Positions 3,991 to 9,855 of a stretch of DNA of 64,000 nt are shown one piece after another. The position numbers were made by a program, and so were the translations under genes. The notes beneath the pieces are model-generated. The model was not told the origin of the DNA. It saw only the letters and a program-made list of their open reading frames with translations, and searched no databases. Origin of the DNA: Candidatus Magasanikiibacteriota bacterium. GTDB taxonomy: Bacteria > Patescibacteriota > Patescibacteriia > Magasanikbacterales > GWA2-37-8. Position 1 is the stretch's first letter. Each line of letters opens with the position of its first letter. Where the stretch lies: the NCBI GenBank assembly GCA_963840935.1, contig CAWJAS010000001.1, positions 512,875 to 576,874 on the forward strand, read 5' to 3'.

Positions 3991-4063
<73 letters not shown>

Positions 4064-4067
4064 CGCA

Positions 4068-4095
4068 AGCGACCCAATAGTTTGGGTCGCTTTTT
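4068..4095 (+). terminator. rho-independent terminator after tRNA pair
   Basis: gcgaccca-atagtt-tgggtcgc + ttttt. Confidence 0.7.
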
Positions 4096-7083: not shown

Positions 7084-8415
7084 ATGGAAGACAAAGCATG
7101 GGTCGTGGCGGTGGACATGGGTTACGGCCATCAAAGAGCCGCTTATCCTTTACGTCGTTTTTCACCCGATGGAAAAGTTATTAATGCCAACAATTATCCC
7201 GGAATTCCGGCAAGTGATTTGCGTGTCTGGAAAAATTCACGCTATTTTTATGAATTTGTTTCCCGACTGACAAATATCCCGCTCATTGGTGGGTACATTT
7301 TTAATTTGTACGATAAATTGCAACGAATTCCCGAATATTATCCCCGTCGTGATTTAACAAAACCCTCTCTTCAGGTAAGAACGCAATATAGCTGGATAAG
7401 GCGGGGGTGGGGAAAAGATTTGGTTGAGTATTTAAATCAACAAGATATTCCGCTTATCACAACCTTTTTTACGGTTGCATTTTTGGCAGAAGAACATGGT
7501 TTTAAAAATGATATATATTTGGTAGTATGCGATTCGGATATTAGCCGAGCTTGGGTGGCGCTTGATTCATCACGAAGCAGAATTAAATATTTGGCTCCTT
7601 GCCGAAGGGTGGTCGACAGGTTAAAAGAATACGGGGTTAAACAGAGTAATATTTTTTTAACCGGGTTTCCTTTACCGGAAGAAAATTTGGGTGGATCATC
7701 TCTTAAAATTCTTAAATCCGATTTAGCCGAGAGATTGATTAATTTGGACCCGGAAAAAAGATATAGAAAAAAATATGCGGAAACCATTAAACATTTTATA
7801 AGAGACATAAAAATTGACGCTCGCCATCGCCATCCATTGACTGTCACTTTTGCGGTCGGAGGTGCCGGCGCGCAAAAAACACTGGCTGAAGATATTTTGA
7901 TGAGTTTAAAAAAGAAAATTTTAGGCGGTGAAATTAATTTTAATTTGGTTGCCGGCGTGCGAAACGACGTGTTCAAATATTTTCACAAAAAAATAATATC
8001 TTCCGGATTAAATAAAGCGTATGGAAAGAATTTGAATATTATTTATGAGTTGCACAAAGAAGACTATTTTAAAAAATTCAGCGCCGTTTTGCGTAATACC
8101 GATATTTTGTGGACCAAGCCGAGCGAACTTGTTTTTTATTCAGCGCTCGGTCTTCCAATAATCACCGCGCCTCCCATCGGGTCACAAGAGAAATTTAACA
8201 AAACTTGGTTAAAAACAATAGGCGCGGGAATATTTCAAGACAATCCAAAATATACGCACGAATGGCTTTTTGATTGGGTTGAGTCAGGTTGGCTGGCTGA
8301 GGCGGCAATGTCCGGGTTTTTGGATGGACGACAATTTGGTGTTTTGAATGTTGAAGATGTTGTATTTAGGGGCGCGGAAAGACCGGATGAAGACGATATT
8401 CTTACCGAATTTTAA
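7084..8415 (+). CDS. GT28-like (MurG/MGDG-synthase-like) GT-B glycosyltransferase
   Basis: N-terminal VVAVDMGYGHQRAA (G-x-GH motif of MGDG synthase/UgtP N-domain) and C-terminal DILWTKPSELVFYSALGLPIITAPPIGSQEKFN resembling MurG/MGDG C-domain. Confidence 0.5.
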   Translation: MEDKAWVVAVDMGYGHQRAAYPLRRFSPDGKVINANNYPGIPASDLRVWKNSRYFYEFVSRLTNIPLIGGYIFNLYDKLQRIPEYYPRRDLTKPSLQVRTQYSWIRRGWGKDLVEYLNQQDIPLITTFFTVAFLAEEHGFKNDIYLVVCDSDISRAWVALDSSRSRIKYLAPCRRVVDRLKEYGVKQSNIFLTGFPLPEENLGGSSLKILKSDLAERLINLDPEKRYRKKYAETIKHFIRDIKIDARHRHPLTVTFAVGGAGAQKTLAEDILMSLKKKILGGEINFNLVAGVRNDVFKYFHKKIISSGLNKAYGKNLNIIYELHKEDYFKKFSAVLRNTDILWTKPSELVFYSALGLPIITAPPIGSQEKFNKTWLKTIGAGIFQDNPKYTHEWLFDWVESGWLAEAAMSGFLDGRQFGVLNVEDVVFRGAERPDEDDILTEF

Positions 8416-8438
8416 CCTTTTTGGGTTTTTATTCTCGC

Positions 8439-8467
8439 TTGACAGGGCAGGTTATTTATTATATAAT
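8439..8467 (+). promoter_or_regulatory. consensus sigma70-type promoter TTGACA-17-TATAAT
   Basis: ttgaca 8439-8444, 17-nt spacer, tataat 8462-8467; followed 25 nt later by 5' fragment of tRNA-Asn. Confidence 0.6.
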
Positions 8468-8488
8468 TTAGGCCGTAAATTCATTGAA

Positions 8489-8508
8489 AATTTATTCCGG
8501 GGTAGCGC
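8489..8508 (+). repeat. 20-bp direct repeat copy 1 (aatttattccggggtagcgc = 7 nt leader + first 13 nt of tRNA-Asn)
   Basis: Identical 20-mer at 8789-8808, exactly 300 bp downstream. Confidence 0.9.
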
Positions 8509-8525
8509 TCCGCCAGCTGGCGGAG
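8508..8525. repeat. perfect 18-bp palindrome ctccgccagctggcggag (copy 1 of 3)
   Basis: Self-complementary; flanked by gtagcgc on both sides; variants at 8946-8963 and 9113-9131. Confidence 0.85.
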
Positions 8526-8544
8526 GTAGCGCCAAAATTAATAT

Positions 8545-8805
8545 ATGTATCAAAAAAAATTTTATATTTATGCCATATATAATTCCAAATGCGGTAAAAT
8601 ATATATTGGGCAAACAATAAATTTAAATGACCGTTTAAATTTACATAATTGTAAAATATTCAGAGGTTACACTTCTAAATTTGAGGGTTCTTGGATAATA
8701 ATTTACAAGGAGGAAGTAAATACTAGGCAAGAGGCTTTAAAAAGAGAAAAGCAGTTAAAAAGTTATAGGGGTCGTGAATTTATTAAACAATTTATTCCGG
8801 GGTAG
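8545..8805 (+). CDS. GIY-YIG nuclease family protein (small stand-alone catalytic domain)
   Basis: FYIYAIY...GKIYIGQTINLNDRLNLHN (GIY...YIG...R...H..N core); stop codon overlaps 5' end of tRNA-Asn; bracketed by 20-bp direct repeats. Confidence 0.7.
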   Translation: MYQKKFYIYAIYNSKCGKIYIGQTINLNDRLNLHNCKIFRGYTSKFEGSWIIIYKEEVNTRQEALKREKQLKSYRGREFIKQFIPG

Positions 8806-8808
8806 CGC
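8789..8808 (+). repeat. 20-bp direct repeat copy 2
   Basis: Identical to 8489-8508. Confidence 0.9.
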
Positions 8809-8867
8809 AGCGGTAGCGCAGTTGACTGTTAATCAATTGGTCGTGGGTTCGAATCCCACCCCCGGAG
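8796..8867 (+). tRNA. tRNA-Asn (anticodon GUU)
   Basis: Acceptor tccgggg/ccccgga, D-arm gcgcagcggtagcgc, anticodon loop ctGTTaa, T-arm gtgggttcgaatcccac, discriminator g. Confidence 0.8.
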
Positions 8868-8873
8868 CATAAT

Positions 8874-8905
8874 AAACATACCACCGATAAGGTGGTATGT
8901 TTATT
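8874..8905 (+). terminator. rho-independent terminator after tRNA-Asn
   Basis: aaacataccacc-gataa-ggtggtatgttt + att. Confidence 0.7.
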
Positions 8906-8945
8906 AAATTTGAGGTGAAAGGATTCGAAGTTTATGCCCCGAGAA

Positions 8946-8990
8946 CTCCGCCAACTGGCGGAGTGAAGGGGTAAATCCCACCCCCGGAGC
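8946..8990 (+). repeat. palindrome ctccgccaactggcggag + decayed copy of tRNA-Asn 3' end (..ggggtaaatcccacccccggagc)
   Basis: Last 17 nt identical to tRNA-Asn 3' end; T-stem/loop mutated so not a functional tRNA. Confidence 0.75.
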
Positions 8991-9021
8991 GAAAAAAAAT
9001 GGCCTGAAGGCCATTTTTTTG
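8991..9021. terminator. bidirectional hairpin terminator
   Basis: gaaaaaaaa-tggcct-gaa-ggcca-tttttttg. Confidence 0.6.
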
Positions 9022-9112
9022 TAGCAACGGGGAGCGACCCAACTGCTTGGGTCGCGAGTGGTATGAGAACGCCGGAGCGATGTTTGGTGAGCTTGCGAGC
9101 GAACCAAACCGC

Positions 9113-9191
9113 GATCCGCCAACTGGCGGAGGTGGCCAGACAAAATTTTCGGAAGAAAATTTTAGTCGAGACCGAATCCCGCCCCCGGAGC
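9113..9191 (+). repeat. palindrome atccgccaactggcggag + internal hairpin + second decayed copy of tRNA-Asn 3' end (agtcgagaccgaatcccgcccccggagc)
   Basis: Aligns to ggtcgtgggttcgaatcccacccccggagc of the intact tRNA with point changes and a 1-nt deletion. Confidence 0.7.
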
Positions 9192-9297
9192 TTTGATATT
9201 TAACCCATTTCTATTGGGTTATTTTTTTCAAAGGTGAATGTAGTAGGATGATGAGGCTTGTGGTATAATTTAGGTATAAATTTTTAAAGTAAAAAAT

Positions 9298-9855
9298 ATG
9301 AGAAAAAAAATTATAATTTCGCTATTTATTATTTTCTCCGTTTTTGCGTTTTCCGGTTGTGGAAAAAAAGCAGAAAAAAATGATAGTGTAGAAAAATCTA
9401 TGGGAACTGTAACAGCGGATAAGAGTTCTGAAGCATCGGCGGAAGGCATCTGCGGAATTTTTACCAAAGATTTTGTTGCTTTGGCTACTGGCTTAAATAT
9501 TACGACAGCCGAAACATATACGATAGAAGGAGTGGAAAGTTCCAATTGCCGTTATTATGTCGATGGTAAAAAAATTGCGCCGGTTATCACTATCGGGAAA
9601 TTTAAAAATGATTTGGAAAAGGAAAAAAAGAAATATTTGGAACACCCACTTTTTAAGGGATGGAGAGTGTTAAAGAATGACGCGATTTCCATGGATAATC
9701 TTGTTACCTATAATGAGGTTGGGCAGTTGAGTGACATTTTTTTGATCACAGGAATAAATGAATATTATCGTTTGACCCTCTATTCTTATACAACCATTGG
9801 TATCAAAGAGATGCTTATATTAGCTTCGCAAGTGGAGAAGGAAATTGGCAAATAA
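9298..9855 (+). CDS. lipoprotein, function unknown
   Basis: Signal peptide ending in lipobox-like AFSGC; tgn-tataat extended -10 at 9262-9270 upstream. Confidence 0.55.
   Translation: MRKKIIISLFIIFSVFAFSGCGKKAEKNDSVEKSMGTVTADKSSEASAEGICGIFTKDFVALATGLNITTAETYTIEGVESSNCRYYVDGKKIAPVITIGKFKNDLEKEKKKYLEHPLFKGWRVLKNDAISMDNLVTYNEVGQLSDIFLITGINEYYRLTLYSYTTIGIKEMLILASQVEKEIGK

What the first reader, a model, noticed from the sequence alone, without database searches (positions are those of the whole stretch)
8439..9195. tRNA-Asn locus is a rearrangement hot spot with a GIY-YIG cassette, a 20-bp direct repeat, a recurring palindrome and decayed tRNA 3'-end copies
A perfect TTGACA-17-TATAAT promoter (8439-8467) is followed by only the first 13 nt of tRNA-Asn. 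The intact tRNA-Asn(GUU) lies exactly 300 bp further on (8796-8867). The 20-mer aatttattccggggtagcgc occurs at 8489-8508 and 8789-8808 and brackets an 86-aa GIY-YIG nuclease ORF whose stop codon overlaps the tRNA 5' end. In the upstream copy the tRNA fragment is interrupted by the perfect palindrome ctccgccagctggcggag (8508-8525), flanked on both sides by gtagcgc, like a tiny insertion with a 7-bp target duplication. The same palindrome recurs at 8946-8963 and 9113-9131. Each downstream copy sits just 5' of a decayed copy of the last ~30 nt of tRNA-Asn (8964-8990; 9160-9191), with the second copy separated from its palindrome by a ~29-nt internal hairpin (ccagacaaaattttcggaagaaaattttagtcgagacc). 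Tandem attR-like tRNA 3' remnants plus a nuclease cassette with a target duplication suggest repeated integration or excision at this tRNA. The GIY-YIG gene may be a mobile or selfish cassette rather than a housekeeping gene. The palindrome could instead be a REP-like element or a recombinase binding site.
Basis: seen in the sequence. Interest (0 to 1): 0.75.

Follow-up and report, generated by a model that had tools for sequence, protein, structure and literature searches.

The report
Nuclease cassette plus tRNA-mimic RNAs
A tRNA-Asn gene of an ultra-small (Patescibacteria) bacterium has, upstream, a small selfish-looking nuclease gene that brings a spare copy of the tRNA's front half, and, downstream, two folded RNAs of apparently undescribed families that each end in a copy of the tRNA's tail.

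Summary

(1) Upstream module: promoter, pseudo-5' part of tRNA-Asn whose D-loop is replaced by the palindrome TCCGCCAGCTGGCGGA, an 86-aa GIY-YIG-only nuclease ORF, then the intact tRNA. The ORF's stop codon is tRNA U8-A9-G10. The same module sits at tRNA-Asn in 10 independent Patescibacteria contexts. The pseudo-copy never extends past the anticodon loop, the phylum's known group I intron site (35/36). Related genomes have empty sites. Against the closest relative the ORF has dS 0.12 while flanking genes have 0.74-1.09. This favours a homing-type mobile cassette. The "7-bp target duplication" is simply the native D-stem.

(2) Downstream module: the "decayed tRNA 3' ends" are the termini of E3 (9016-9191) and E2 (8921-8990). 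E3 belongs to a structured-RNA family that lies just downstream of at least 15 different tRNA types and ends in a 19-22-nt copy of that tRNA's 3' end. Covariation is strong (30 of 40 pairs compensatory). The family is absent from Rfam 15.

Cleavage specificity, the palindrome's role and the RNAs' function remain inferred or unknown.

The parts
8439..8467 (+). Sigma-70-type promoter of the tRNA-Asn transcription unit. It now drives pseudo-exon, GIY-YIG ORF and tRNA.
   Evidence: 12/12 consensus match. A promoter at the same position precedes tRNA-Asn directly in the cassette-free relatives L005, L015 and L017 and precedes the cassette in L142 and L143.
8471..8495 (+). Leader. Positions 8471-8488 are a diverged copy of the ORF's 3' end (8770-8787), probably a remnant of an earlier tandem cassette.
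   Evidence: Repeat families D4/D5. The same ORF-3'-like leader occurs in L143, which carries two tandem cassettes.
8496..8533 (+). Pseudo 5' part of tRNA-Asn: positions 1-13, the palindrome in place of D-loop nt 14-17, then positions 18-25.
   Evidence: Direct reading against 8796-8820. Equivalent pseudo-copies reaching at most position 35/36 occur in 10 contexts.
8509..8524 (.). Palindrome copy 1 (TCCGCCAGCTGGCGGA), the conserved cassette hairpin.
   Evidence: Arms are invariant in all cassettes although tRNA and protein sequences differ.
8545..8805 (+). 86-aa GIY-YIG-only nuclease ORF. The stop codon is tRNA nucleotides U8-A9-G10.
   Evidence: PF01541 E 2.6e-16. 193 homologues; those named by a source are all Patescibacteria lineages. 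Motif residues are invariant. dN/dS is 0.08 against L143.
8796..8868 (+). Intact tRNA-Asn(GUU).
   Evidence: ARAGORN; Rfam RF00005, 74 bits.
8870..8906 (+). 16-bp hairpin after the tRNA (terminator-like).
   Evidence: Inverted repeat I5, 100% complementary.
8921..8990 (+). E2, a mini tRNA-tail RNA element. Order: T-stem-5'-like GGATT, TCGAAGTTTA, CCCC...GGGG hairpin (with palindrome copy 2 in its loop), then the tail AAATCCCACCCCCGGAGC.
   Evidence: Homologues lie downstream of tRNA-Asn in L002 and L162/L163. MFE fold z = -5.8. Only three sequences, so structural support is weak.
8947..8962 (.). Palindrome copy 2 (CAACTG centre), inserted in the E2 loop.
   Evidence: Absent from the E2 homologues in L002 and L163.
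8993..9020 (.). Bidirectional terminator-like hairpin (A-run, 13-nt arms, T-run).
   Evidence: Inverted repeat I12.
9016..9191 (+). E3, a member of the roughly 155-nt structured RNA family. Parts: acceptor-like 5' strand CGGGG (9028-9032); P0 hairpin (9034-9055); T-stem-5'-like GTGGTAT (9058-9064); conserved block GAGAACGCCGGAGCGATG (9065-9082); P3 hairpin; P2; P4 hairpin (9136-9172); tail CGAATCCCGCCCCCGGAGC (9173-9191).
   Evidence: Covariance model R1: 117 bits, E 7e-31. Family alignment and RNAalifold. Covariation controls.
9115..9130 (.). Palindrome copy 3, an insertion found in none of the other 32 aligned family members. It competes with helix P2.
   Evidence: Alignment A1, columns 113-125.
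9201..9228 (+). Intrinsic terminator after E3.

Best explanation
The locus combines two independent tRNA-linked modules that are each conserved in Patescibacteria.

(A) 5' module. This is a free-standing, domain-only GIY-YIG nuclease gene that occupies the anticodon-loop position of tRNA-Asn, the same place as the phylum's group I introns. It is followed by a second copy of the tRNA's 5' part fused to the rest of the gene, so the tRNA stays intact. The displaced original 5' part remains upstream as a pseudo-exon attached to the promoter. One transcript therefore carries pseudo-exon, ORF and tRNA, and the ORF ends on tRNA nucleotides U8-A9-G10. The cassette most likely persists and spreads as a homing-type element. 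In this model the nuclease breaks tRNA-Asn loci and repair from a cassette-bearing copy uses the tRNA halves as homology arms. The same process would explain tandem cassettes and extra tRNA fragments. The 16-nt palindrome that replaces the pseudo-exon's D-loop is a sequence-constrained part of the cassette. It is probably the protein's recognition or operator site. It also disables the pseudo-exon and interrupts its homology to the real tRNA.

(B) 3' module. E3 and E2 are genes, or selfish hitch-hikers, for structured RNAs. They imitate the acceptor/T-stem 'top half' of the neighbouring tRNA and end in a copy of its last ~20 nt. They are most likely co-transcribed with the tRNA and processed by the tRNA-end machinery.

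In the window's lineage, copies of the cassette palindrome were also inserted into E2 and E3.

Shown: the architecture, its conservation, empty sites, low dS, purifying selection and RNA covariation.
Inferred: cleavage and homing, the palindrome's role, and transcription, processing and function of the E RNAs.
For: Module A:
- The same order (pseudo-exon with TCCGCCAGCTGGCGGA, then an ORF of about 83 aa, then tRNA-Asn) is found in the window, L142, L143, L144/145, L146-151, L152-157, L158, L160 (Saccharibacteria), L163 and L165.
- The pseudo-copy-to-tRNA spacing is 292-304 nt in seven contexts and 372 nt in L144, which carries an extra fragment.
- The pseudo-copy ends at or before position 36, and the ORF stop is always the tRNA's UAG.
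- Introns at 35/36 interrupt the real tRNA in L143, L160 and L165. This matches PMC13011429.
- Cassette-free tRNA-Asn sites occur in related Magasanikbacteria L005, L012, L015 and L017, and no palindrome occurs in L001-L021.
- L143 carries tandem cassettes.
- Against L142 the ORF has dS 0.116, while three flanking genes have 0.74-1.09.
- dN/dS is 0.08 against L143, and the motif residues are invariant.

Module B:
- Of 65 E3-type hits, about 50 lie downstream of a co-oriented tRNA (most within 100 nt), covering at least 15 identities.
- The tail is a 19-22-nt copy from T-loop C56 to the discriminator, plus CCA where the gene encodes it.
- 40 pairs are predicted and 30 show compensatory changes. 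93.4% of cells are paired against 70.8% in shuffles. The covariation score is 0.597 against 0.178 (0 of 500 shuffles reach it). Slid controls reach at most 0.168.
- G-U pairs outnumber A-C pairs about 38 to 14 on the tRNA strand (my tally from the pair table).
- An acceptor-like helix with the tail averages 4.85 bp against 3.98 +/- 0.15 bp for mismatched partners.
- 36 of 55 elements have no T-run between the tRNA and the element.
- No Rfam family matches.

Precedent: the phage GIY-YIG endonuclease SegB sits among tRNA genes and recognises the T-psi-C loop motif. It drives homing and segmental amplification of tRNA plus segB (PMC2330249, PMC13096335).
Against: - The protein has no DNA-binding domain (82-88 aa; Pfam covers residues 5-73). 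How it would achieve site specificity is unexplained.
- In 7 of 10 contexts the real tRNA has no intron and is identical to the pseudo-copy. A nuclease that targets tRNA-Asn itself would then also cut its own host copy.
- GIY-YIG identity tracks housekeeping identity across three relatives (95/96% and 77/79%). The protein is highly conserved phylum-wide. Both are compatible with a long-resident, possibly domesticated gene.
- The low-dS signal rests on one genome pair and 86 codons.
- No close relative and no palindrome were found in viral contigs.
- For E RNAs, 19 of 55 have a T-run, and the window has strong terminator-like hairpins, between the tRNA and the element. No promoter was detected for E2 or E3.
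- The window's E3 carries a disruptive insertion and scores lower than its relatives (117 against 137-144 bits).
- The conserved 18-mer used for the metagenome scan makes that block invariant by construction.
Confidence: 0.55

Rival explanations
1. Domesticated operon rather than a mobile element. The small GIY-YIG protein is a host accessory factor. Its expression is coupled to tRNA-Asn through a tRNA-like leader. The pseudo-exon plus hairpin acts as a cis-regulatory or autoregulatory element. RNase P cleavage at the tRNA 5' end would remove the ORF's stop codon and so limit expression.
For: The protein is strongly conserved across classes of the phylum (57% mean identity). dN/dS is 0.08. Identity tracks housekeeping genes in three relatives. 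The reading-frame relation to tRNA U8-A9-G10 is fixed in all contexts. The palindrome arms are invariant, as expected for a protein-binding operator.
Against: Distribution is patchy among close relatives: absent in L001, L002, L005, L012, L015 and L017. dS is 7-9 times lower than in flanking genes against L142. Tandem and fragmentary copies occur. The breakpoint coincides with an intron homing site.
Confidence: 0.22
2. The tRNA 3'-end copies are attR-type scars of repeated integrase-mediated integration and excision of genomic islands at tRNA-Asn. The palindrome is a recombinase site or a REP-like element.
For: Direct repeats of the tRNA's last ~20 nt, starting in the T-loop, are what T-loop-type integrases leave (own knowledge; tRNA gene fragments are reviewed in PMC9897764). 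Tandem units exist in other loci: L041, L104, L117 and L133.
Against: Only 100-200 nt lie between the repeats, with no cargo and no integrase. No protein family recurs next to 63 such loci. The intervening sequence is a conserved RNA fold with 30 compensatory pairs. Its 5' segments co-vary with the tail. The palindrome is missing from all other E3 members and from L001-L021. Instead it is a fixed part of the GIY-YIG cassette.
Confidence: 0.05
3. E elements are non-autonomous mobile DNA, not functional RNAs. They insert at tRNA T-loops after nuclease breaks (SegB-like) or by recombination at the conserved TTCGAA motif. They bring a replacement tRNA 3' end and displace the original as the tail. 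The RNA-like fold reflects requirements of the mobility intermediate.
For: E elements sit at 15 or more tRNA identities with nearly the same core. Tandem arrays occur. The window has the elements and L142 does not. Variants carry GGATTCGAAC at the left junction and CGAATCC at the right, which resembles the SegB motif RAWTSGAAC (PMC13096335). A pseudo-tRNA-Lys in L047 is truncated at the T-loop.
Against: The excess of G-U over A-C pairs points to RNA of the tRNA strand. No nuclease or recombinase is linked to the elements. E3-type elements are not found in the other GIY-YIG contexts. The three tRNA-specific segments would have to be re-adapted at each new tRNA.
Confidence: 0.2
4. Assembly artefact or chance repeats.
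For: Repeats of 300 bp can confuse assemblers. L143 contains a run of N inside its tandem cassettes.
Against: The same architecture appears in independent assemblies from NCBI, JGI, ENA and Logan, including a complete Saccharibacteria genome, CP065013.1. Chance expectations are 0 to 0.01.
Confidence: 0.01

Closest known systems
Phage T4/T6 SegB, a free-standing GIY-YIG homing endonuclease in a tRNA gene cluster (PMC2330249, PMC13096335)
   Same: Both are GIY-YIG nuclease genes embedded among tRNA genes and absent from related genomes. SegB cuts inside tRNA genes at the T-psi-C loop motif. It promotes its own inheritance and segmental (tandem) amplification of tRNA plus nuclease units. Here there are tandem cassettes, partial tRNA duplications and breakpoints in tRNA loops.
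   Different: SegB has a DNA-binding part in addition to the catalytic domain and is a phage gene. The protein here is 82-88 aa (catalytic domain only) and chromosomal in Patescibacteria. It is always at tRNA-Asn, overlaps the tRNA, and is preceded by a pseudo-5' exon with a conserved palindrome. Cleavage was not tested here.
Collaborative homing of a free-standing endonuclease with an ORF-less group I intron (F-CphI / psbA; PMC6083498, PMC3984707)
   Same: The nuclease gene lies next to, not inside, a gene that carries a group I intron at the site concerned. In L143, L160 and L165 the tRNA-Asn next to the GIY-YIG gene has an intron at 35/36, and the pseudo-exon ends at that site.
   Different: Seven of 10 contexts, including the window, have no intron. 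The nuclease family differs. The duplicated 5' exon has no counterpart in that system.
Group I introns at position 35/36 of Patescibacteria tRNA-Asn/Asp (PMC13011429)
   Same: Same gene, same phylum and same position in the anticodon loop. L014 and L016 carry such an intron with an HNH-type ORF.
   Different: The window has no ribozyme. At most 11 nt lie between pseudo-exon and ORF, and the ORF runs into the tRNA. No Rfam intron hit was found. The tRNA is kept intact by duplication instead of splicing.
Integrative elements that target tRNA 3' ends (attL/attR repeats starting in the T-loop). Own knowledge: Williams 2002, Nucleic Acids Res 30:866. tRNA fragments are discussed in PMC9897764.
   Same: There is a direct repeat of the tRNA from the T-loop to the 3' end. 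Tandem units occur.
   Different: There is no integrase and no cargo. The repeat-bounded unit is a roughly 150-200-nt structured RNA whose 5' segments pair with the repeat.
tRNA-like non-coding RNAs: the tmRNA tRNA-like domain (PMC3929946) and bacterial Y RNAs / YrlA (PMC4201824)
   Same: There is an acceptor-like helix stacked on a T-stem-like helix, with no anticodon arm and extra domains inserted.
   Different: The E RNAs' helices copy whichever tRNA lies upstream. The T-loop is replaced by a three-way junction. No hit to the tmRNA or Y RNA models was found.

Membership tests
GIY-YIG nuclease superfamily (PF01541) | Profile match above the curated threshold | tested here: met
   60.1 bits against a cut-off of 22.6; residues 5-73.
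GIY-YIG nuclease superfamily (PF01541) | Conserved motif residues (two Tyr-containing motifs, Arg, His, Glu) | tested here: met
   Y9, Y12, Y20, G22, R30, H34, E56 and E68 are invariant in 16 sequences. The roles of these residues are taken from established knowledge of the family.
GIY-YIG nuclease superfamily (PF01541) | Three-dimensional fold | not tested
   No structure prediction was run. The nearest solved relative by sequence is 1YWL, a UPF0213 protein (E 0.004).
Free-standing homing endonuclease gene | Presence/absence polymorphism at the same site in related genomes | tested here: met
   The promoter leads directly to tRNA-Asn in L005, L012, L015 and L017. The cassette is present in the window, L142 and L143.
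Free-standing homing endonuclease gene | Element more similar between genomes than its flanks (recent lateral copying) | tested here: met
   dS 0.116 against 0.74-1.09; nucleotide identity 96.5% against 80-87%, window versus L142. This is one pair only.
Free-standing homing endonuclease gene | Site-specific cleavage of the element-free allele followed by gene conversion | not testable with these tools
   Requires biochemistry or genetic crosses.
Free-standing homing endonuclease gene | DNA-binding domain linked to the catalytic domain (as in I-TevI and SegB) | tested here: not met
   Homologues are 81-118 aa, those in the 10 examined contexts mostly 82-88 aa, and consist of the catalytic domain alone.
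Intron-encoded homing endonuclease (group I intron) | ORF embedded in a self-splicing ribozyme | tested here: not met
   No intron model hit in 8300-9400. No sequence room exists on either side of the ORF.
Integrase-type genomic island at a tRNA gene | Integrase gene and cargo between attL and attR | tested here: not met
   Only 100-200 nt lie between the repeats. No recurrent neighbouring protein was found in 63 loci.
Integrase-type genomic island at a tRNA gene | Direct repeat identical to the tRNA 3' end | tested here: met
tRNA / tmRNA | Scores as tRNA or tmRNA with covariance or heuristic models | tested here: not met
   Only 8796-8867 scores. The pseudo-exon, E2 and E3 do not.
REP/BIME-like dispersed palindromes | Many copies dispersed in intergenic regions of the genome | tested here: not met
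   There are three copies in 64 kb, all at this locus. In 950 kb of other loci the 4-nt-spacer form with an AGCT, AACT or AGTT centre occurs only in tRNA-derived contexts.
E3-type structured RNA family (defined here) | Match to the family covariance model | tested here: met
   117 bits, E 7e-31, full length. The window sequence was itself part of the seed alignment, so this match is partly by construction.
E3-type structured RNA family (defined here) | Conserved secondary structure supported by compensatory changes | tested here: met
   30 of 40 pairs are compensatory. No shuffle out of 500 reaches the observed score. Slid controls are far lower. The alignment was made by MAFFT without reference to structure.
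E3-type structured RNA family (defined here) | Transcription and defined RNA ends | not testable with these tools
   Requires RNA-seq or end mapping.

The most novel reading that the evidence does not exclude
The E2/E3-type elements are a new class of expressed, anticodon-less tRNA mimics. Their acceptor-like and T-like helices are copied from, and kept matched to, whichever tRNA gene lies upstream. They would enter the tRNA processing pathway (RNase P, 3' trimming, CCA addition) and act on enzymes or toxins that recognise the tRNA top half. Together with a domain-only GIY-YIG cassette that keeps an essential tRNA intact by carrying a spare 5' exon, this would make Patescibacteria tRNA genes platforms for a previously unrecognised layer of tRNA-templated RNA and DNA parasites or regulators.
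Probability: 0.35. Interest if true: 0.85.

Novelty: new variant of a known kind. Interest (0 to 1): 0.8.

Why it matters
Patescibacteria have tiny genomes, yet they keep these elements at tRNA genes.

If the cassette is a homing element, it shows a way to invade an essential RNA gene without a self-splicing intron: it carries a duplicate of the displaced 5' exon. It would also show that an 86-aa catalytic domain alone can sustain such an element. That raises the question of what gives it specificity; the invariant 16-nt palindrome is an obvious candidate that can be tested directly.

The E RNAs add two structured-RNA families with strong (E3) or preliminary (E2) comparative support that are missing from Rfam. 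Their ends are templated by the neighbouring tRNA, an unusual property for an RNA family. This makes testable predictions about processing by the tRNA machinery and about possible roles as decoys or mobile units.

For annotation, the result explains a class of 'tRNA fragments' and helps avoid calling them integration scars.

Tried and rejected
- A small ORF over E3 (9063-9203, 46 aa) was rejected. Its length and frame are not conserved in L001 and L002, and the variable hairpin changes by compensatory substitutions.
- E2, E3 or the pseudo-exon as tRNA, tmRNA or any Rfam family: no hit.
- Resemblance of the core to hammerhead or T-box motifs, recalled from memory, found no support from Rfam.
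- The GGAGG that follows the palindrome cannot be the ORF's Shine-Dalgarno sequence. My reading of the sequences puts it 15-29 nt from the start codon.
- No conserved neighbouring protein was found for E elements. An all-against-all BLAST of 160 flanking ORFs gave only small clusters from duplicate contigs.
- Phage or plasmid origin was not supported. There were no BLAST hits for an E3-type element. The E3 block and the palindrome are absent from viral contigs. Only distant N-terminal GIY-YIG matches occur in viral contigs.
- A link between E3-type RNAs and the GIY-YIG cassette was not supported. Model R1 finds no E3-type element in the nine other cassette contexts.
- Literature searches found no description of the cassette architecture or of the E RNAs. 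The library does not cover all subscription journals.
- Not used: structure prediction, fold search and the exhaustive protein-representative search.
Full report
OBSERVATION.
- The promoter at 8439-8467 is a 12/12 consensus match.
- The only tRNA is tRNA-Asn(GUU) at 8796-8867.
- The 20-mer occurs only at 8489 and 8789.
- The ORF at 8545-8805 is a GIY-YIG domain protein (PF01541, E 2.6e-16). Its stop codon lies inside the tRNA.
- The palindrome core TCCGCCARCTGGCGGA occurs three times, all here, against 0.01 expected.
- Copies of the tRNA 3' end lie at 8973-8990 and 9173-9191.

Two details needed correction. First, the upstream tRNA fragment continues after the palindrome with GGTAGCGC (tRNA positions 18-25). 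Second, the 'flanking GTAGCGC' repeat already exists in the intact tRNA, where it forms the two halves of the D-stem. It is not a target duplication.

ORGANISM AND COMPARATORS. The upstream 443-aa DUF6938 gene retrieved 21 loci, largely from Magasanikbacteria and other Patescibacteria MAGs. In L005, L012, L015 and L017 the conserved promoter is followed directly by tRNA-Asn. These are empty sites with no ORF, no fragment and no palindrome. L014 and L016 carry a group I intron with an HNH-type ORF in the anticodon loop. This is the 35/36 insertion described for Patescibacteria tRNA-Asn (PMC13011429).

THE 5' MODULE IS A CONSERVED CASSETTE. A protein search found 193 small (81-118 aa) GIY-YIG-only homologues; those named by a source are all Patescibacteria lineages. 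I fetched nine further genomic contexts:
- L142: 95% identical protein, same synteny as the window.
- L143.
- L144/145.
- L146-151.
- L152-157.
- L158.
- L160: a complete Saccharibacteria genome.
- L163: Curtissbacteria-like.
- L165.

All nine show the same order. A pseudo-copy of the 5' part of tRNA-Asn comes first, with D-loop nucleotides 14-17 replaced by TCCGCCAGCTGGCGGA. The ORF follows, then the complete tRNA-Asn. The ORF terminates on the tRNA's U8-A9-G10 (UAG). The distance from pseudo-copy to real tRNA is 292-304 nt in seven contexts and 372 nt in L144. The pseudo-copy extends at most to position 35/36 of the anticodon loop: L152 ends at CTGT|, L158 at CTGTT|, L146 at position 33. In the window it is cut back to position 25. 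In L143, L160 and L165 the real tRNA additionally carries a group I intron at 35/36. L143 has two tandem cassettes. L144 and L165 have extra palindrome-bearing tRNA fragments.

SELECTION AND MOBILITY. The protein is under purifying selection: dN/dS is 0.08 against L143 and the motif residues are invariant. Against L142 the three flanking genes have dS 0.74-1.09 and 80-87% nucleotide identity. The GIY-YIG ORF has dS 0.116 and 96.5% identity. A sliding identity profile jumps to 97-98% exactly over the ORF and tRNA. Synonymous sites are saturated against L143 (dS 1.68), so the low value is not a general constraint on the ORF. It indicates recent copying between lineages. Against it, or at least complicating it: the protein lacks any DNA-binding domain; its identity otherwise tracks housekeeping genes; and the low-dS result rests on a single pair.

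THE PALINDROME. Its arms TCCGCC/GGCGGA are invariant in all cassettes. This holds although the adjoining tRNA sequences differ (tccggggtagcgc, tccgacgtagctc, tccgggatagctc, cccctgtagctca, tcgggagtagcgc) and the proteins are only 56-70% identical. Only the central 4 nt vary (AGCT, AACT, GGCC). In L142 the arms are doubled. A purely structural hairpin would show compensatory changes, so the sequence itself appears constrained. The most economical reading is recognition by a protein, and the cassette's own nuclease is the obvious candidate. This is inference.

The palindrome is not REP-like. It is absent from the rest of the window and from L001-L021. Outside cassettes I found it only in tRNA-derived contexts:
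- It replaces the anticodon-stem 5' strand of a pseudo-tRNA-Lys that is truncated at the T-loop and sits directly upstream of the real tRNA-Lys (L047).
- It forms the tip of helix P4 of an E element (L034).
- It occurs in the window's E2 and E3.

THE 3' MODULE. The closest relatives with E elements, L002 and L001, showed that the two 'decayed tRNA tails' belong to conserved, terminator-bounded units. An 18-mer conserved in the longer unit (GAGAACGCCGGAGCGATG) was used to scan metagenome contigs and gave more than 120 stretches. Of the hits in the loci held, including L001 and L002, 65 are true homologues. About 50 of them lie downstream of a co-oriented tRNA, most within 19-100 nt. The tRNA identities are Leu, Ser, Asn, Gln, Lys, Asp, Arg, Thr, Cys, Met, Tyr, Val, Gly and Ala, plus Glu. 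Each element ends in a 19-22-nt copy of that tRNA from T-loop C56 to the discriminator, and includes CCA where the gene encodes it.

A structure-blind MAFFT alignment of 33 members gives an RNAalifold consensus of 40 pairs, 30 of them with compensatory changes. The controls are clear:
- 93.4% of cells are paired, against 70.8% in shuffles.
- The covariation score is 0.597 against 0.178, and no shuffle out of 500 reaches it.
- Slid controls reach at most 0.168.

G-U pairs exceed A-C pairs about 38 to 14 (my tally), which points to an RNA of the tRNA strand.

The architecture, from 5' to 3', is as follows. An acceptor-like 5' strand pairs with the tail (mean 4.85 bp against 3.98 +/- 0.15 bp with mismatched partners). 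Next comes hairpin P0 with loop AAYWGYUU, then a T-stem-5'-like strand that pairs with the tail (P1). Next is GAGAAC, which in variants is TTCGAAC, that is, T-loop-like. Then follows a three-way junction with P2/P3 and P4, and finally the tail. Topologically this is the acceptor/T-stem 'top half' of the neighbouring tRNA, without an anticodon arm and with the T-loop replaced by a conserved domain.

Model R1 finds one copy in the window (9016-9191, 117 bits). It also finds copies in L001 and L002 (144 and 137 bits), 61 hits in L022-L121 and 17 more in L122-L141. No Rfam family matches. There is no plasmid, phage or viral-contig match. No protein family recurs beside the elements. Host contigs have 36-55% GC, and the most GC-rich locus is from Kaiserbacteria. 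With Magasanikbacteria (L001, L002), the anchored hosts are therefore all Patescibacteria.

In the window's E3 the palindrome is a 13-nt insertion absent from all 32 other members. It competes with helix P2, and P1 has a mismatch. This copy may be decaying.

E2 (8921-8990) is a shorter type. Its order is T-stem-5'-like strand, (G/T)(A/C)GAAGTTTA, a CCCC...GGGG hairpin, AATCC and the tail. It also occurs downstream of tRNA-Asn in L002 and in the distant L162/L163. With only three sequences its fold is not established.

The block 8877-9849 (E2, E3 and a lipoprotein ORF) is absent from L142. The 3' module is therefore also variable between close relatives.

HOW IT MOST LIKELY WORKS.
Shown: the architecture of both modules and their conservation; the empty sites; the cassette's low divergence and purifying selection; the RNA covariation.
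Inferred (about 0.55-0.6): the GIY-YIG cassette is a homing-type element inserted at the anticodon loop. It keeps the essential tRNA intact by carrying a second 5' exon, uses the tRNA promoter, and has expression tied to the unprocessed precursor, because RNase P cleavage would remove its stop codon. Nuclease-induced breaks and recombination would explain tandem cassettes and stray tRNA pieces. This is what the phage GIY-YIG enzyme SegB does in tRNA clusters (PMC2330249, PMC13096335).
Inferred (about 0.5): the E RNAs are co-transcribed with the tRNA, since 36 of 55 have no T-run in between, and are processed like tRNAs. Whether they are useful mimics or hitch-hiking selfish units is open.
Unknown: how the palindrome reached E2 and E3. 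The flanks of the E3 and pseudo-exon sites are similar (GCGN_GGTRGC), but those of E2 are not.

COMPARISON WITH KNOWN SYSTEMS. The cassette works like a free-standing homing endonuclease gene (SegB; collaborative homing, PMC6083498 and PMC3984707). It fails one usual family feature, the DNA-binding domain, and cleavage is untested. I therefore file it as a new variant, not a member. It is not an intron-encoded endonuclease, because there is no ribozyme. The tails are not integrase scars. The E RNAs resemble tmRNA and Y-RNA tRNA-like domains in principle only.

LIMITS.
- The metagenome scan used an exact 18-mer, so that block is invariant by construction and the sample is biased.
- Taxonomy of most contigs is unknown.
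- The collection scans were capped, so E2-type and TTCGAAC-type variants could not be surveyed.
- Nothing about transcription or enzyme activity can be shown here.

Noticed in passing
window 4067-4092: Directly after tRNA-Thr (3991-4064) lies a hairpin AAGCGACCCA-atagtt-TGGGTCGCTT followed by a T-run. It has the same stem and loop type as the P0 hairpin of E3 (9034-9055). These are the only two such hairpins in 64 kb. It may be a solo remnant of an E element, or the P0 type may derive from tRNA terminators.
   Followed up: partly
L014:5396-6008, L016:5380-5993; also L143:3252-3610, L160 and L165: tRNA-Asn is interrupted in the anticodon loop (after CTGT) by a group I intron. In L014 and L016 the intron holds an HNH-type ORF. 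This matches the 35/36 site reported in PMC13011429. ARAGORN misses these genes.
   Followed up: partly
L047:440-530 (minus strand): A pseudo-tRNA-Lys sits directly upstream of the real tRNA-Lys. It is a copy of positions 1 to about 58. The palindrome TCCGCCAGTTGGCGGA replaces the anticodon-stem 5' strand, and the copy is truncated in the T-loop. No ORF is present, and an E3-type element follows the real tRNA.
   Followed up: partly
L001:9190-9240 (minus strand): tRNA-Asn is internally deleted: tccggggtagcgcagcgg joins directly to agcg plus a terminator. This looks like a deletion between the D-loop GCGG and the 3'-terminal CCGG. It leaves only the E3 homologue, so the functional tRNA-Asn of that genome must be elsewhere.
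   Followed up: no
L142:2946-2982: In the closest relative both palindrome arms are doubled (TCCGCCATCCGCCAACTGGCGGAGGCGGA), giving a longer hairpin. This suggests the hairpin forms in vivo and grows by slippage.
   Followed up: no
L004:5340-5610 and L007:5375-5615: A different, unrelated small ORF (about 76-80 aa, no tRNA fragment, no palindrome) lies between the conserved promoter and tRNA-Asn in two other Magasanikbacteria-like genomes.
   Followed up: no
window 8877-9849 versus L142:3333-3370: A 973-bp block (tRNA-proximal hairpin, E2, E3, promoter and a 185-aa lipoprotein-like ORF at 9298-9855) is present in the window but replaced by a 38-bp terminator in L142. No repeats were seen at the boundaries.
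   Followed up: partly
L029, L096, L103, L104, L121 and others, about 54 nt upstream of the E3 conserved block: A linker motif GAACGAAGTGA lies between the tRNA 3' end and the acceptor-like strand in 11 of 55 E3-type elements (0.8 expected). It sits at a nearly fixed distance. Its meaning is unknown.
   Followed up: partly
L165:2097-2360 and 1900-2090: A second GIY-YIG gene of a different subfamily (87 aa) and several roughly 60-nt direct repeats lie about 600 nt downstream of the cassette-bearing, intron-containing tRNA-Asn.
   Followed up: no
window 9061-9079 and all E3 members: The conserved block ACGAGAACGCCGGAGCG matches the 23S rRNA sarcin-ricin loop sequence ACGAGAGGACCGGAGUG (recalled from memory) at 13 of 17 positions. 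It is predicted to fold differently, so this is probably coincidence.
   Followed up: no
L144:771-927: A sub-threshold SAM riboswitch match (30.8 bits against a gathering score of 44.4) lies upstream of the S-adenosylmethionine synthetase gene.
   Followed up: no
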